Sequence record: KX130863
Reading direction: 5' to 3' (one strand)
DNA: 64,000 nt
Source of the DNA: Shigella phage SHSML-45
The notes beneath the pieces are model-generated. The model was given only the letters and a program-made list of their open reading frames with translations. It made no database searches and was not told the DNA's origin. This document shows, piece by piece, positions 4,975-18,146 of the stretch. Each line of letters opens with the position of its first letter. The stretch's first letter is position 1. The translations under genes and the position numbers were made by a program.

Positions 4975-5727
4975 TTATCCAACTAGTGGTTCTAGCTCTA
5001 AGTCACAGAAGTTATAAACTTCTAGTTTAAGGTTATTGATACCATCGAATTTATTAACTAATTCGTGAGTAATATATTTTGCAGGAATACCACTTTCAGA
5101 TGGATGATCTGATTTAATAGTGAACTTCTGCTCAGCGGGTACTACATTTACTATCAAAGAATCCATATCTAAATGGTTTGTTTCTCTGAGTAACTCTCCT
5201 TCATTGGGGAATCTAACATCTGTTATTACGGCGACATCTGGGTCGTCTTTAGCGATGGATTGCTCCAGAATTATGAGCCAAATGCGTTCATGCACCAGCT
5301 GCCTTCCTAGCTCTGTCCCTACGAGCTGTAACATTTTTCTCGGAGAAATAAATAAACTATAAAGACCATCTTCTTTACTCTCTGAGATAAGTTGTTGAGG
5401 ATTAAGATATTTTTCCTCAAAAATAGGCCAAACGTACGAGAAGTCTTCAAACTTATCGATACCATACTTAACCCACACATCTCTAGCTCGCTCCAACTGA
5501 GATTGTGTGACCGTAAACCATTGGTCAATTTCTTTTCCCCTGCGCTCTCCTAGAAACTCTGGAGTTACCCCGAGGATTACGGATGCAAGCTCATAAACTG
5601 GTTTAGCAAAACTGTAACGACGGGGTAAACACGTTGGATACGTGTCATTACACCAATCGATAATTAATTTTGCAACGGTATCTTTTCCTGCACCTGCCTC
5701 GCCATGTAAACCTACTAATACTGACAT
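4975..5727 (-). CDS. deoxynucleoside monophosphate kinase
   Basis: N-terminal P-loop LHGEAGAGKDTVAKLI resembles the T4-type dNMP kinase GxxGxGKDT motif; 250 aa. Confidence 0.6.
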   Translation of the reverse strand: MSVLVGLHGEAGAGKDTVAKLIIDWCNDTYPTCLPRRYSFAKPVYELASVILGVTPEFLGERRGKEIDQWFTVTQSQLERARDVWVKYGIDKFEDFSYVWPIFEEKYLNPQQLISESKEDGLYSLFISPRKMLQLVGTELGRQLVHERIWLIILEQSIAKDDPDVAVITDVRFPNEGELLRETNHLDMDSLIVNVVPAEQKFTIKSDHPSESGIPAKYITHELVNKFDGINNLKLEVYNFCDLELEPLVG

Positions 5728-6080
5728 TAATCTTTCCTATTGTTAATGGGTGGATAGTAAATTAAGCAACGTTTTTCTTGTAAATCTTGGCGATAAAAGC
5801 AAACCATACTAGTCAATCGTGAGATATATGAATATTCTGCCTCGCGGCATTTTGCCAACATATTCCAATCTTTATATGGTACGACTACTACTACGCCATC
5901 CTCCCCATTTGTAGCTAATTTCTTTTCGAATTTGAAATCAAAGCTACAAGGTTGAAGTCCTTTAGGCCAGTCCACATGAGCTGTTGGTAGTTCATGGGTA
6001 GGTTCTGGCTTTATTTCTTGTGCACAGCCTGTGATTGTGATTGCGGCTGCGAGCAGTATTCCAAGTTTTATTTTGTGCAT
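5727..6080 (-). CDS. lipoprotein
   Basis: Signal peptide with lipobox LAAAITITGC. Confidence 0.5.
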   Translation of the reverse strand: MHKIKLGILLAAAITITGCAQEIKPEPTHELPTAHVDWPKGLQPCSFDFKFEKKLATNGEDGVVVVVPYKDWNMLAKCREAEYSYISRLTSMVCFYRQDLQEKRCLIYYPPINNRKD

Positions 6081-13240: not shown

Positions 13241-13426
13241 TTACTCAGCTTTGAGTTTTTCAATAGCTGCATTAAGTTCTTTAAGAAACTCTTTTCGTAC
13301 ATTAAGACGATTGAGACTTACTAGTATATCATGTTTAAGTTCTTCGATGTATTTCTTCTCAACTTCAATATTGTTGATAGTGCTATCACGATGAACTTCT
13401 AGCTGCGCAATCACATTCTTGGACAT
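13241..13426 (-). CDS. small coiled-coil protein (61 aa)
   Basis: ORF. Confidence 0.3.
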   Translation of the reverse strand: MSKNVIAQLEVHRDSTINNIEVEKKYIEELKHDILVSLNRLNVRKEFLKELNAAIEKLKAE

Positions 13427-13453: not shown

Positions 13454-13526
13454 TGGTATCTGTGGCTGAATTCGATGTCAGCAATGATAGCTGGTTGGCT
13501 ACCGGTTTACTTAACTCTACACAGAA
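13454..13526 (-). tRNA. tRNA-like (anticodon unresolved)
   Basis: Canonical 3' half (GCTGA-CATCGAA-TCAGC T-arm, acceptor, CCA) but the anticodon arm folds with a 6-nt loop. Confidence 0.35.
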
Positions 13527-13528
13527 TT

Positions 13529-13611
13529 TGGCGGGCCGTGTAGGATTCGAACCTACGTTGTCTTTCGACACGGATTAACAATCCGCCGCCAAACCGCTTG
13601 GCTAACGACCC
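13529..13611 (-). tRNA. tRNA with anticodon GTT (Asn) and an extended variable arm
   Basis: Acceptor GGGTCGT/ACGGCCC, anticodon arm GCGGA-TTGTTAA-TCCGT, 13-nt variable region, T-arm GTAGG-TTCGAAT-CCTAC, CCA. Confidence 0.5.
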
Positions 13612-17572: not shown

Positions 17573-18074
17573 TTTAAGTATTTTTAAGAACTCTCGTAAA
17601 AACTCTTAAAAATACAGACGATACCGGGAGAGTCATAAGTCTCACTCATTAAGTATTTCAAGACAAAATACAGTAACGTCTATTATTTTCCAGTTTAAGT
17701 CAAGGTGACTTAGTGGTTATGTCCTGCGGTATACTGAGGACTCGGTTAGGTTAGGGTCATGACTCCCCACCTTTTGCTGCTACTCAACAGGAGTTATCGC
17801 GAATTACCTGTGCTATTGTGCACCATTAGTGACATCTCTCATGTCAGCATTTCCCACTTTGTGGATAGCTTGAAAAACTACTCCGATATGGAGAAAGAAC
17901 TTCACTATCCTAGAATACCTTCTAAAGTTCTTCTTTAGCCTGGACATAGTTAAATCGTAATAAAACTATTCAGCAGACTGGTTGGTTAGTCTGGAACCAA
18001 CTACCGCGTGGTTTAGGCAGTGCGCAACTAACCTCGGAAGCTTTTACGTTAAAAGCACCAGTTATCCAGTTCTT

Positions 18075-18146
18075 ACCGACCGTAGGATTCGAACCTACAT
18101 CTTCCACCAGTTACGGCTTGATAATACCGTTTATACTAGATCGGCA
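18075..18146 (-). tRNA. tRNA-like (anticodon unresolved; CCA not encoded)
   Basis: Perfect T-arm GTAGG-TTCGAAT-CCTAC and acceptor GCCGATC/GGTCGGT (two G-U pairs); anticodon arm did not fold by hand. Confidence 0.4.

What the first reader, a model, noticed from the sequence alone, without database searches (positions are those of the whole stretch)
13529..13611. tRNA with Asn anticodon (GTT) but a class-II-like extended variable arm
My hand fold gives an 83-nt tRNA with anticodon loop TTGTTAA and a 13-nt variable region, unusual for tRNA-Asn. If real, this could affect aminoacylation identity, for example a decoding-altering or suppressor-type phage tRNA. It abuts another tRNA-like element with a 6-nt anticodon loop (13454-13526).
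Basis: seen in the sequence. Interest (0 to 1): 0.45.

Follow-up and report, generated by a model that had tools for sequence, protein, structure and literature searches.

The report
Phage tRNA-Asn with an extra arm
This is a real asparagine tRNA gene of a T5-like phage that carries an extra hairpin arm normally seen only in leucine, serine and tyrosine tRNAs; the gene is already known and behaves as an Asn tRNA, but the arm is a conserved, almost phage-only feature whose purpose I found no explanation for.

Summary
ARAGORN and Rfam both call an 83-nt tRNA-Asn(GUU) at 13529-13611 on the minus strand. Its 13-nt variable region folds as GUC-GAAA-GAC plus an AAC tail. The window is a Tequintavirus (99.6% identical to Salmonella phage Shivani), and the gene is the ortholog of T5 tRNA-Asn (96% identical).

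The suggestion that it alters decoding or acts as a suppressor is not supported:
- The full E. coli AsnRS identity set (G34, U35, U36, G73) is present.
- The arm is Leu/Tyr-sized, not Ser-sized.
- The T5 ortholog helps rescue cells and phage from the PARIS AriB tRNase, which cleaves host tRNA-Asn (PMC12409363).

The arm is not a local oddity. I found 111 distinct long GUU tRNAs whose arm stems covary. They make up 12-23% of matching viral tRNA-Asn genes. Only 17 occur in 185,579 cellular species genomes, mostly inside tRNA arrays.

The arm's role is unproven. T5 tRNA-Thr(UGU), another anti-PARIS tRNA, has a similar arm, and T5-type tRNA-Tyr evades a retron nuclease through its variable loop. 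Two statistical tests for a PARIS-specific link were negative. The best reading is an ordinary Asn decoder with a selected extra arm, possibly a shield against nucleases.

The parts
13529..13611 (-). tRNA-Asn(GUU) gene, 83 nt, with CCA encoded
   Evidence: ARAGORN; Rfam RF00005 at 58.4 bits; MFE cloverleaf; annotated tRNA-Asn in Shivani, T5 and hundreds of phage records
13605..13611 (-). Acceptor stem, 5' strand GGGUCGU. It pairs with 13533-13539 (ACGGCCC): 7 pairs including U4-G69, with G1-C72 and G2-C71
   Evidence: Sequence; fold
13588..13602 (-). D arm GCCA-AGCGGUU-UGGC: a 4-bp stem and a 7-nt loop containing G18 G19 and C16. This is a class-I-like D arm, whereas many relatives have a 3-bp stem with a 9-11-nt loop
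   Evidence: Sequence; family comparison; E. coli tRNA-Asn has U16
13570..13586 (-). Anticodon arm GCGGA-UUGUUAA-UCCGU. The stem is identical to that of E. coli tRNA-Asn and includes the AriB site U36-A-A-U-C|C41. The only difference in the loop is U32 in place of C32
   Evidence: Sequence; verified E. coli tRNA-Asn; cleavage site from PMC12409363
13577..13579 (-). Anticodon GUU, which reads AAC and AAU
   Evidence: ARAGORN places the anticodon at position 33
13557..13569 (-). Extra (variable) arm, 13 nt: stem GUC/GAC (13567-13569 with 13560-13562), GAAA tetraloop (13563-13566), and unpaired tail AAC (13557-13559) whose last C is position 48, the Levitt partner of G15
   Evidence: MFE fold; covariation in homologs; Levitt-pair test
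13540..13556 (-). T arm GUAGG-UUCGAAU-CCUAC
   Evidence: Sequence; Rfam alignment
13532..13532 (-). Discriminator G73, an AsnRS identity element
   Evidence: Sequence; G73 in 108 of 111 long GUU tRNAs; identity rule from PMC9976931
13454..13526 (-). Adjacent degenerate tRNA-like element. It is not part of the tRNA. It is most likely a decayed tRNA gene or a structured spacer, and it overlaps a weak promoter-like match for the downstream 61-aa ORF
   Evidence: Fold z = -3.0; not called by ARAGORN or Rfam; over 95% conserved in Tequintavirus, absent from INF11-type relatives, and replaced by a real tRNA-Met in Proteus phages; promoter-like site 13481->13453

Best explanation
This is a functional phage-encoded elongator tRNA-Asn. 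It is transcribed from the minus strand within the T5-type early tRNA region, charged with asparagine by the host AsnRS (which reads G34, U35, U36 and G73), and used to read AAC and AAU.

It most likely serves two purposes. It supplements host tRNA-Asn for an AT-rich, Asn-rich phage proteome. It also keeps translation going when host tRNA-Asn is destroyed by tRNA-cleaving defences such as PARIS AriB.

The 13-nt variable region is a real, selected class-II-type hairpin (3 bp plus a GAAA cap) set into an otherwise normal tRNA core. It does not change amino-acid identity. Its most likely role is to alter the tRNA surface right beside the 3' strand of the anticodon stem (AriB cuts at 40|41 and the arm starts at 44), so that host nucleases which recognise host tRNA-Asn do not recognise or cut the phage copy.

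What is shown and what is inferred:
- Shown here: the gene, the fold, conservation and covariation of the arm, and its restriction to phages.
- Shown in the literature for the T5 ortholog: a contribution to the rescue from PARIS.
- Inferred: charging by AsnRS (probability about 0.9).
- Inferred and only circumstantially supported: the shielding role of the arm (probability about 0.35).
For: The gene and its fold:
- ARAGORN, Rfam and the MFE fold all agree.
- The window is 99.6% identical to Tequintavirus shivani, and the gene is annotated tRNA-Asn there and in T5.
- It differs from the T5 copy at three positions. Two of them form a compensatory U28-A42 to C28-G42 change.

Asn identity:
- GUU plus G73 is the E. 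coli Asn identity set (PMC9976931).
- G73 is kept in 108 of 111 long GUU tRNAs, although G73 was not part of the search pattern.
- U1-A72, typical of bacterial tRNA-Asn, is present in 72 of 111.

Function:
- AriB cleaves E. coli tRNA-Lys(UUU), Thr(UGU) and Asn(GUU) at 40|41. Co-expressing the T5 tRNA-Lys, Thr and Asn rescues growth, and the T5 tRNA-Asn is needed to rescue phages T5Mos and Bas34 (PMC12409363).
- Asn codons make up 5.5% of codons in the window's ORFs.

The arm is real and selected:
- There are 111 distinct long GUU tRNAs. The mean best hairpin is 3.46 bp against 2.72 +/- 0.07 for shuffles.
- All 4 arm pairs show changes on both sides.
- RNAalifold predicts the same five-helix fold with no structure supplied.
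- The 15:48 Levitt pair is kept more often than chance: 56 of 111 against 38 +/- 4.6.

The arm is phage-specific:
- It occurs in 14 of 120 matching viral tRNA-Asn genes, and in 11 of 48 within loci holding five or more tRNAs.
- Only 17 occur in 185,579 cellular species genomes, and 11 of those lie in dense tRNA arrays.
- No E. coli genome has a similar gene.

Support for a shielding role:
- The window tRNA keeps the host's anticodon stem and the AriB site exactly. Any escape must therefore come from elsewhere, meaning the arm or C16.
- T5 tRNA-Thr(UGU), another anti-PARIS tRNA, also keeps UAAUCA and has a 3-bp, GUAA-capped extra arm. T5 tRNA-Lys has no arm and is the one reported to escape through site substitutions.
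- In T5-like phage SP15, the variable loop of phage tRNA-Tyr is required to neutralise Retron-Eco7 (PMC12673091 and PMC13096335).
Against: - No experiment has addressed the arm. The AriB paper never mentions the variable region. It attributes escape to substitutions near the cleavage site and to U16->C in the D-loop. The window tRNA also has C16, which may be enough on its own.
- Resistance of T5 tRNA-Asn to AriB has not been shown directly. The authors say they cannot exclude cleavage of the Bas34 copy, and that some viral tRNAs may act as competitive inhibitors.
- Both of my tests for a PARIS-specific link were negative. Among non-Asn class I phage tRNAs, an extra arm is not associated with the UAAUC site (OR 1.3, p = 0.36). 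Long arms on Asn and Thr(UGU) do not co-occur significantly (OR 2.2, p = 0.34).
- Extra arms also occur on isotypes not known to be AriB targets: Ile(UAU), Cys and Trp.
- From general knowledge, not tested here: class II synthetases such as AspRS approach the tRNA from the variable-loop side, so it is not self-evident that AsnRS tolerates a long arm.
Confidence: 0.55

Rival explanations
1. A neutral or purely structural arm. The tRNA is an ordinary Asn decoder. The extra hairpin is an evolutionarily labile feature of phage tRNAs, either inherited from a class II ancestor or gained by insertion. It is kept only because, once present, it is needed for correct folding or stability, and it has no role in defence evasion.
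For: - Arm presence tracks what the synthetase needs rather than defence. In the same viral loci tRNA-Ser is long in 79 of 81 and tRNA-Tyr in 52 of 55. tRNA-Leu, whose E. coli synthetase does not read the arm, is long in only 68 of 125, and both T5 tRNA-Leu genes are 77 nt.
- Extra arms appear sporadically on many isotypes.
- There is no association with the AriB-type site and no significant co-occurrence with long Thr(UGU).
- GNRA caps are as common on phage Ser (54%) and Leu (41%) arms as on Asn arms (54%), so the design is generic.
Against: - The arm is almost absent from cellular tRNA-Asn (17 in 185,579 species) yet present in 12-23% of matching phage genes. Pure neutrality does not explain that contrast.
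- The distribution across isotypes is very uneven: Lys(UUU) 0 of 70 and Arg(UCU) 0 of 71, against Ile(UAU) 11 of 22 and Thr(UGU) 12 of 64.
- Several phages keep a short and a long tRNA-Asn side by side.
- A variable-loop change has been shown experimentally to matter for defence evasion in the tRNA-Tyr of T5-like phage SP15.
Confidence: 0.3
2. A non-translational decoy. The long-arm tRNA acts mainly as a competitive inhibitor or sponge for host tRNA-targeting nucleases, or for another tRNA-binding factor, rather than as a decoder.
For: The AriB authors raise the possibility that overexpressed viral tRNAs inhibit AriB by competing with host tRNAs. This would explain why plasmid copies were needed even when the phage encodes the tRNA (PMC12409363). 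Some phages carry both a short and a long tRNA-Asn.
Against: Every feature needed for translation is conserved: the 7/5 acceptor/T architecture, the canonical T loop, G18 G19, U33, A37, G73 and an encoded CCA. The anticodon and discriminator are conserved as expected for a tRNA that is charged. Most phages with the long form have no other tRNA-Asn.
Confidence: 0.07
3. Altered identity. The long arm plus G73, with G2-C71 and C11-G24 in this copy, lets SerRS or another synthetase charge it. AAC/AAU would then be partly read as Ser, giving deliberate mistranslation or recoding.
For: - A long V-arm plus G73/U73 is described as the essential SerRS element set (PMC5389517).
- The window copy has G1-C72, G2-C71, C11-G24 and G73.
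- Its arm carries a GNRA cap, as 54% of phage tRNA-Ser arms do.
- There is precedent for V-arm tRNAs with class I anticodons being mischarged: the nematode nev-tRNAs (cited, details from my own knowledge).
Against: - The arm is 13 nt with 3 bp. tRNA-Ser arms in the same phages have a median of 18 nt and mostly 5-7 bp, and this window's own tRNA-Ser(GCU) arm is 19 nt.
- 46 of the 111 family members have C2-G71, a listed SerRS antideterminant.
- The full AsnRS identity set is conserved.
- The T5 ortholog helps restore growth when host tRNA-Asn is depleted, and no toxicity from its overexpression is mentioned in the text read. Proteome-wide Asn-to-Ser replacement would be deleterious.
Confidence: 0.04
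4. A handle for a phage factor. The arm is a recognition element for a phage-encoded enzyme (modification, repair, CCA addition or processing) that marks or matures phage tRNAs specifically.
For: The arm is conserved and often GNRA-capped, and GNRA loops are common protein and RNA docking motifs. It is phage-restricted.
Against: The same architecture occurs in unrelated phage lineages that share no obvious common tRNA enzyme: Demerecviridae, Straboviridae, Phapecoctavirus, phiKZ-like phages and many metagenomic contigs. The T5 tRNA-Asn works when expressed from a plasmid in uninfected E. coli.
Confidence: 0.04

Closest known systems
Bacteriophage T5 tRNA-Asn(GUU)
   Same: It is the ortholog: 83 nt, 96% identical, with the same acceptor stem, D arm, T arm and an identical extra arm GUCGAAAGACAAC, in the same position between tRNA-Cys and tRNA-Asp. 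The T5 copy contributes to neutralising PARIS AriB (PMC12409363).
   Different: There are three substitutions in the anticodon arm: the compensatory 28:42 change from U-A to C-G, and C32 to U. With these, the window copy's anticodon stem becomes identical to that of E. coli tRNA-Asn. The arm was not discussed in any paper I could read.
E. coli / enterobacterial host tRNA-Asn(GUU)
   Same: The same anticodon, an identical anticodon stem GCGGA/UCCGU, the same U8 A9, G26, G15-C48 and G73, and the same AsnRS identity set.
   Different: The host tRNA is 76 nt with a 5-nt variable loop (AUGUC), U1-A72, U16 and an 8-nt D loop. The phage tRNA has a 13-nt hairpin arm, G1-C72, C16 and a 7-nt D loop. Overall similarity is too low for BLAST to detect.
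Bacterial class II tRNAs (Leu, Tyr, Ser)
   Same: A base-paired extra arm lies between the anticodon and T stems, followed by unpaired nucleotides ending at position 48. The arm's size and GNRA cap are most like phage tRNA-Leu arms (median 13 nt, 41% GNRA). Many family members also have the class II-type 3-bp D stem with a large D loop.
   Different: The anticodon and discriminator are those of Asn. G73 is an antideterminant for LeuRS and TyrRS. The arm is shorter than Ser arms. Tyr arms almost never have GNRA caps (3%). The window copy has a class-I-like 4-bp D stem.
T5 / SP15 tRNA-Tyr with a distinctive variable loop that evades Retron-Eco7 (PtuAB) and Septu
   Same: It comes from the same phage group. 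A remodelled variable arm distinguishes the phage tRNA from its host counterpart, and the phage tRNA replaces a host tRNA destroyed by a defence nuclease.
   Different: There the nuclease cuts within the variable arm itself, and the arm's role has been shown by deletion and chimera experiments. For tRNA-Asn the known nuclease cuts the anticodon stem, and the arm's role is untested.
Non-canonical V-arm tRNAs: nematode nev-tRNAs and bacterial allo-tRNAs
   Same: They are tRNAs with class I-type anticodons that nevertheless carry a long variable arm (PMC5389517).
   Different: Allo-tRNAs have 8/4 or 9/3 acceptor/T architecture and are thought to be Ser acceptors. This tRNA is 7/5 and keeps the Asn identity elements. 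The nev-tRNAs are eukaryotic and charged with Leu (my own knowledge, not checked here).

Membership tests
tRNA (Rfam RF00005) | Cloverleaf with a 7-bp acceptor stem, D arm with G18 G19, 5-bp anticodon stem with a 7-nt loop (U33), and 5-bp T stem with a T-psi-C loop, scoring above the curated threshold | tested here: met
   58.4 bits against a gathering score of 29; ARAGORN call; MFE cloverleaf
tRNA-Asn (substrate of bacterial AsnRS) | Anticodon G34-U35-U36 | tested here: met
   GUU at tRNA positions 33-35 of the gene, window 13577-13579; identity rule from PMC9976931
tRNA-Asn (substrate of bacterial AsnRS) | Discriminator G73 | tested here: met
   G at window 13532; G73 in 108 of 111 long GUU tRNAs
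tRNA-Asn (substrate of bacterial AsnRS) | Actual charging with asparagine and decoding of AAC/AAU | not testable with these tools
   Indirect evidence only: the T5 ortholog helps rescue growth and infection when host tRNA-Asn is cleaved (PMC12409363)
tRNA-Asn (canonical bacterial form) | Class I architecture with a 4-5-nt variable loop | tested here: not met
   13-nt variable region forming a 3-bp stem plus tetraloop. E. coli tRNA-Asn has 5 nt
Class II (long-arm) tRNA architecture | Variable region longer than 10 nt that forms a conserved stem-loop | tested here: met
   Fold; covariation in all 4 arm pairs; hairpins exceed shuffles across 111 sequences
Class II (long-arm) tRNA architecture | 3-bp D stem with an enlarged D loop, as in bacterial Leu, Ser and Tyr tRNAs | tested here: not met
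   The window copy has the 4-bp stem GCCA/UGGC with a 7-nt loop. Many relatives do have the 3-bp stem with a 9-11-nt loop
tRNA-Ser (SerRS substrate) | Long variable arm of Ser size (in these phages a median of 18 nt, mostly 5-7 bp) | tested here: not met
   13 nt and 3 bp here. The family median is 15 nt with 3-4 bp, against a Ser median of 18 nt
tRNA-Ser (SerRS substrate) | G73, G2-C71 and C11-G24 | tested here: met
   All are present in the window copy. However, 46 of the 111 family members have the antideterminant C2-G71
tRNA-Tyr / tRNA-Leu (bacterial) | Discriminator A73, and a GUA anticodon for Tyr | tested here: not met
   G73 and GUU. G73 is listed as an antideterminant for LeuRS and TyrRS
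Suppressor tRNA | Anticodon complementary to a stop codon, or an 8-nt anticodon loop for frameshift suppression | tested here: not met
   Sense anticodon GUU in a 7-nt loop
allo-tRNA | 8/4 or 9/3 acceptor/T-stem configuration with a long V-arm | tested here: not met
   7-bp acceptor and 5-bp T stem; definition from PMC5389517
Anti-defence phage tRNA (nuclease-resistant replacement of a targeted host tRNA) | The host counterpart is the target of a defence tRNase, and the phage copy restores infection | not testable with these tools
   Reported for the T5 ortholog in combination with T5 tRNA-Lys and tRNA-Thr (PMC12409363). Not tested for this phage, and direct resistance of the Asn tRNA to AriB has not been shown

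The most novel reading that the evidence does not exclude
Extra arms grafted onto normally arm-less phage tRNAs form a general, so far undescribed kind of structural armour. The affected isotypes are Asn(GUU), Thr(UGU), Ile(UAU), Cys, Trp and others. A short capped hairpin placed next to the 3' strand of the anticodon stem would make the phage tRNA unrecognisable to host anticodon-arm nucleases such as PARIS AriB. The synthetase identity elements are left untouched, so the phage keeps decoding while host tRNAs are destroyed.
Probability: 0.3. Interest if true: 0.7.

Novelty: new variant of a known kind. Interest (0 to 1): 0.45.

Why it matters
Textbook bacterial tRNAs carry a long variable arm only for Leu, Ser, Tyr and Sec. 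Here a class-II-like tRNA-Asn turns out to be common in phages: 12-23% of matching phage tRNA-Asn genes, across at least five unrelated phage lineages. In cells it is almost absent.

The T5 member of the family is one of three phage tRNAs that together defeat the PARIS defence system. How it escapes the nuclease is an open question, because its cleavage site is unchanged from the host's. The arm is an obvious candidate that can be tested directly.

If the arm does protect, that would add a structural route to the known anticodon-loop point mutations by which phage tRNAs evade tRNA-targeting immunity. It would also suggest a way to design nuclease-resistant tRNAs. If it does not, the data still show that the class I / class II boundary is fluid in phage tRNAs (Leu loses the arm while Asn, Thr and Ile gain it). 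That matters for isotype prediction and annotation.

Tried and rejected
1. Recent capture from the host. BLAST of the 83-nt gene against 5,426 E. coli genomes gave only 29-nt T-arm matches. Rejected.

2. Origin from tRNA-Tyr by a GUA-to-GUU anticodon shift.
- Nearest-neighbour identities within each phage were all 0.6-0.7. Tyr was nearest most often (18), but Leu (14) and Lys (11) were close behind, and matching lengths bias the comparison.
- Tyr arms almost never carry GNRA caps (3% against 54% for Asn).
- Inconclusive, leaning against.

3. Single versus multiple origin. Clustering the tRNA cores gave 30 clusters at 80% identity and essentially one large cluster at 75%. Uninformative.

4. PARIS-specific association. 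There was no enrichment of extra arms on non-Asn class I tRNAs that carry the UAAUC site (OR 1.3, p = 0.36). There was no significant co-occurrence of long Asn with long Thr(UGU) (OR 2.2, p = 0.34). Both tests were negative.

5. A GNRA cap as an Asn-specific design. Rejected, because phage Ser and Leu arms are capped just as often.

6. The neighbour element as a real tRNA. It is not called by ARAGORN even at 50% thresholds on its own strand. The relaxed calls lie on the opposite strand or overlap the Asn gene, and they look spurious. Rfam finds nothing better than E = 9.

7. First viral scan with the exact U32 pattern. It returned only 4 loci and was too strict. Two scans failed on pattern syntax.

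8. Literature. No accessible paper links tRNA-Asn, a variable arm and phages. The AriB paper's supplements are not held. The 1980s T5 tRNA sequencing papers are not in the library, so the arm may have been drawn there without my being able to see it.

9. Saprospiraceae genome hits. These turned out to be tandem truncated tRNA-Asn 5' halves, not long-arm tRNAs.
Full report
**1. What is at 13529-13611**

ARAGORN finds ten tRNA genes on the minus strand between 11.8 and 18.1 kb. One is tRNA-Asn(gtt) at exactly 13529..13611, 83 nt long. Rfam's tRNA model scores it at 58.4 bits against a threshold of 29 and places a 10-nt insertion in the variable region. Folded alone, the RNA gives a cloverleaf plus an extra hairpin (-33.9 kcal/mol, z = -3.1).

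Read from the sequence, the tRNA is:
GGGUCGU UA GCCA-AGCGGUU-UGGC G GCGGA-UUGUUAA-UCCGU GUC-GAAA-GAC-AAC GUAGG-UUCGAAU-CCUAC ACGGCCC G CCA.

The gene lies on the minus strand.

**2. Where it comes from**

The surrounding 1.4 kb is 99.6% identical to Salmonella phage Shivani (Tequintavirus shivani), where the gene is annotated tRNA-Asn, "codon recognized: AAC". The 83-nt sequence matches 613 phage records, and in 521 of them the match covers at least 80% of the query.

It is 96% identical to the tRNA-Asn of T5. There are three differences, all in the anticodon arm. Two of them are the compensatory change of pair 28:42 from U-A to C-G. The third is C32 to U.

No E. coli genome holds a similar gene. 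I verified the E. coli tRNA-Asn sequence against 5,425 genomes. Compared with it, the window tRNA has an identical anticodon stem and keeps U8, A9, G15-C48, G26 and G73. It differs in the acceptor and T stems, in the D loop (C16 instead of U16, one nucleotide shorter) and in the variable region.

**3. The extra arm is a conserved, selected helix**

Full-length homologs of 83-87 nt, all annotated tRNA-Asn, occur in several unrelated groups:
- Demerecviridae (T5-like phages, Proteus phage Stubb);
- Phapecoctavirus (ukendt);
- a phiKZ-like Pseudomonas phage (PA1C);
- the jumbo phage Munch.

Their arm stems differ but always pair: GUC/GAC, GUUC/GAAC, AUCC/GGAU, GUCA/UGAC, GGC/GCC.

After ARAGORN parsing I had 111 distinct long GUU tRNAs. 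Their properties are:
- variable region 11-19 nt, most often 15;
- stem usually 3-4 bp;
- a GNRA tetraloop in 61 of 111 (GAAA in 43);
- a 3' tail of usually 3-4 nt;
- T stem intact in 110 of 111 and acceptor stem intact in 101 of 111.

On this unselected set the mean best hairpin is 3.46 bp, against 2.72 +/- 0.07 for shuffled variable regions.

I then aligned the 22 distinct sequences that share the commonest layout. All four arm pairs show changes on both sides, with 2-5 pair types per position. The whole five-helix structure is 99.4% paired, against 70.7% in shuffles and 33-46% when the partners are slid. Because those 22 were chosen for having a 4-bp stem, the informative result is the diversity of pairs, not the pairing percentage. 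RNAalifold, given no structure, predicts the same five helices.

The last nucleotide of the long region behaves as position 48. It forms a canonical Levitt pair with position 15 in 56 of 111 sequences. The shuffled expectation is 38 +/- 4.6, and none of 2,000 shuffles reached 56. Shifted registers give only 25 and 10. The window tRNA has G15-C48. The hairpin is therefore a true class-II-type arm set into a normal core.

**4. It is a phage feature**

With the same sequence anchors but any variable-region length, 14 of the first 120 viral matches (12%) are long. Among loci with at least five tRNAs the figure is 11 of 48 (23%).

The long pattern found only 37 places in one genome for each of 185,579 bacterial and archaeal species. 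Only 17 of those are real long tRNA-Asn genes, and 11 of the 17 sit in arrays of 7-36 tRNAs per 8 kb, which are typical of phage or mobile DNA.

These frequencies are conditional on the anticodon arm GGACUGUUAAUCC and a GGTTCRA T arm.

**5. Does the arm change amino-acid identity?**

The evidence says no.
- E. coli Asn identity rests on the three anticodon bases and G73 (PMC9976931). The window tRNA has all four.
- G73 was not part of my search pattern, yet it is kept in 108 of 111 long GUU tRNAs.
- G73 is listed as an antideterminant for LeuRS and TyrRS.

The serious alternative is SerRS, because a long V-arm plus G73/U73 are its essential elements (PMC5389517). The window copy also has G2-C71 and C11-G24. 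Against this:
- In the same phage loci tRNA-Ser arms have a median of 18 nt and mostly 5-7 bp. The long Asn arms have a median of 15 nt and 3-4 bp, close to Tyr (14 nt) and Leu (13 nt).
- The window's own tRNA-Ser(GCU) arm is 19 nt, against 13 nt for Asn.
- 46 of the 111 have C2-G71, a listed SerRS antideterminant.

[quoted passage not shown] Co-expression of the T5 tRNA-Lys, Thr and Asn almost completely restores growth. The T5 tRNA-Asn is needed to rescue phages T5Mos and Bas34 (PMC12409363). That behaviour fits an Asn-inserting tRNA. It does not fit one that would put Ser at every Asn codon.

Asn codons make up 5.5% of the codons in the window's ORFs, so the phage's demand for this tRNA is high.

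**6. What might the arm do?**

This step is inference. The window tRNA keeps the host's anticodon stem and the AriB site U36-A-A-U-C|C41 exactly. If it escapes AriB, the determinant must lie elsewhere. There are two candidates:
- C16. The authors show that U16-to-C impairs cleavage of tRNA-Lys, and their model has the second AriB subunit on U16-U17.
- The extra arm, which begins three nucleotides after the cut site.

Three observations are suggestive:
- T5 tRNA-Thr(UGU), another of the three anti-PARIS tRNAs, is 87 nt long, keeps UAAUCA, and has an arm A-GGA-GUAA-UCC-CGUU.
- T5 tRNA-Lys(UUU) has a normal loop, and it is the one shown to escape through substitutions at the site.
- In the T5-like phage SP15, deleting or swapping the phage tRNA-Tyr variable loop restores Retron-Eco7 defence (PMC12673091; see also PMC13096335).

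Two independent statistical tests did not support a PARIS-specific link:
- Among non-Asn class I phage tRNAs, an extra arm is not associated with the UAAUC site (OR 1.3, p = 0.36).
- Long arms on Asn and on Thr(UGU) do not co-occur significantly (OR 2.2, p = 0.34).

Extra arms also occur on Ile(UAU) (11 of 22), Cys (8 of 56), Trp (7 of 57), Ile(GAU) (9 of 64) and Met (8 of 122). They never occur on Lys(UUU) (0 of 70) or Arg(UCU) (0 of 71).

GNRA caps are generic to phage V arms: Ser 54%, Leu 41%, Asn 54%, but Tyr only 3%.

Arm retention by isotype follows synthetase need. Ser is long in 79 of 81 and Tyr in 52 of 55, but Leu in only 68 of 125. Both T5 tRNA-Leu genes are 77 nt with A73. This fits the view that the arm is invisible to synthetases that do not read it, and that it is free to be gained or lost for other reasons.

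**7. Origin**

Nearest-neighbour comparison within phages and clustering of the tRNA cores cannot resolve whether the family has one origin or several, or whether it derives from a class II tRNA. The loop statistics argue against Tyr ancestry. T5-like phages and the 166-172-kb Klebsiella/Enterobacter-type phages share the acceptor stem GGGUCGU/ACGGCCC, which indicates transfer between unrelated phages of enterobacteria.

**8. The neighbouring element, 13454-13526 (minus strand)**

It folds (z = -3.0) into:
- an acceptor-like stem with a U1-U72 mismatch;
- a 6-bp hairpin with the 6-nt loop CAACCA;
- a T-like hairpin with an 8-nt loop;
- A73-CCA;
- no D arm.

ARAGORN and Rfam do not call it, and it is unannotated in Shivani and T5. 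It is over 95% conserved within Tequintavirus. It is absent from INF11-type relatives, and Proteus phages have a real tRNA-Met at that position. A weak promoter-like match for the next small ORF overlaps it. It is most simply a decayed tRNA gene or a structured spacer.

**9. Verdict**

The gene is a known, annotated phage tRNA-Asn whose T5 ortholog has a published counter-defence role. The decoding-alteration reading is not supported.

What I did not find described is the arm itself: a covarying, phage-restricted class-II-type arm on tRNA-Asn, and less often on other class I tRNAs. No paper I could search mentions it. The 1980s T5 tRNA sequencing literature is outside the library. The arm's function is open. 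Nuclease shielding is the best-motivated hypothesis, and it can be tested directly.

Noticed in passing
window 13454-13526 (minus strand): A degenerate tRNA-like element lies directly downstream of tRNA-Asn. It has an acceptor-like stem, a 6-nt 'anticodon' loop, an 8-nt T-like loop, an A-CCA end and no D arm. It is conserved in Tequintavirus, absent from INF11-type relatives, and replaced by a real tRNA-Met in Proteus phages. It overlaps a weak promoter-like site (13481->13453) upstream of the 61-aa ORF at 13241-13426.
   Followed up: partly
window 18073-18146 (minus strand); the same element at L277 18917-18988 (T5_ev212): ARAGORN calls an odd 'tRNA-Ser(act)' with no CCA. Rfam tRNA scores 36.8 bits but leaves 18 nt of the anticodon region unaligned. 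In T5_ev212 the equivalent element is annotated only as 'tRNA', with no isotype. It is probably another aberrant or decayed tRNA-like gene, about 575 nt from tRNA-Arg(UCU).
   Followed up: no
L277 8134-8220 (T5_ev212); L095 8998-9084: T5 tRNA-Thr(UGU) is 87 nt long and has a 15-nt extra arm (A-GGA-GUAA-UCC-CGUU), while keeping the AriB-type site UAAUCA. Two of the three T5 tRNAs reported to neutralise PARIS therefore have class-II-like arms. The window itself has no tRNA-Thr or tRNA-Lys gene.
   Followed up: partly
L277 9881-9957 and 14050-14126; L002 3023-3099 and 8066-8142: T5-type tRNA-Leu(UAG) and tRNA-Leu(UAA) are only 77 nt long, with a 5-nt variable loop and A73, so they are class-I-like leucine tRNAs. 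Across the viral loci only 68 of 125 distinct tRNA-Leu genes are long, against 79 of 81 for Ser and 52 of 55 for Tyr.
   Followed up: partly
viral loci, e.g. L030, L031 and L099; one genome locus: tRNA-Ile(UAU) genes of 91-96 nt make up 11 of 22 in the sample. Their long variable arms have loops that share a CAGAUAA / CAGAUUA / CUAGAUUGG-like motif. This is a different and more conserved arm design than the one on Asn.
   Followed up: no
L019, L052, L054, L056, L066, L076, L081, L086, L101, L105, L145, L164, L167: These contigs encode both a standard 72-76-nt tRNA-Asn and a long-arm tRNA-Asn. In several contigs (for example L052, L054, L056, L081, L086) the two are only a few to about 30 nt apart. 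This hints that the two forms are not redundant.
   Followed up: no
L054 1440-1526, L055 13362-13447, L056 209-295: Three related long GUU tRNAs have U73 instead of G73. Each is most similar to a co-resident long-arm tRNA-Cys(GCA) (70-74% identity). Their identity is less certain than that of the rest of the family.
   Followed up: no
L136, L137, L141, L165 (Micromonospora/Verrucosispora); L145; L167: These bacterial genome loci hold 21-36 tRNA genes within 8 kb, covering 16-21 isotypes and including a long-arm tRNA-Asn of 83-90 nt. They are dense tRNA arrays, probably of phage or mobile origin.
   Followed up: no
L144 about 5470-5930 (also L134, L143, L154, L161 and other Saprospiraceae/Bacteroidota MAGs): Three tandem 128-bp units lie upstream of an intact 75-nt tRNA-Asn. 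Each unit holds the 5' 44 nt of tRNA-Asn followed by the palindrome CCCGATAGCTATCGGG instead of the rest of the gene. These are repeated truncated tRNA halves of unknown meaning.
   Followed up: no
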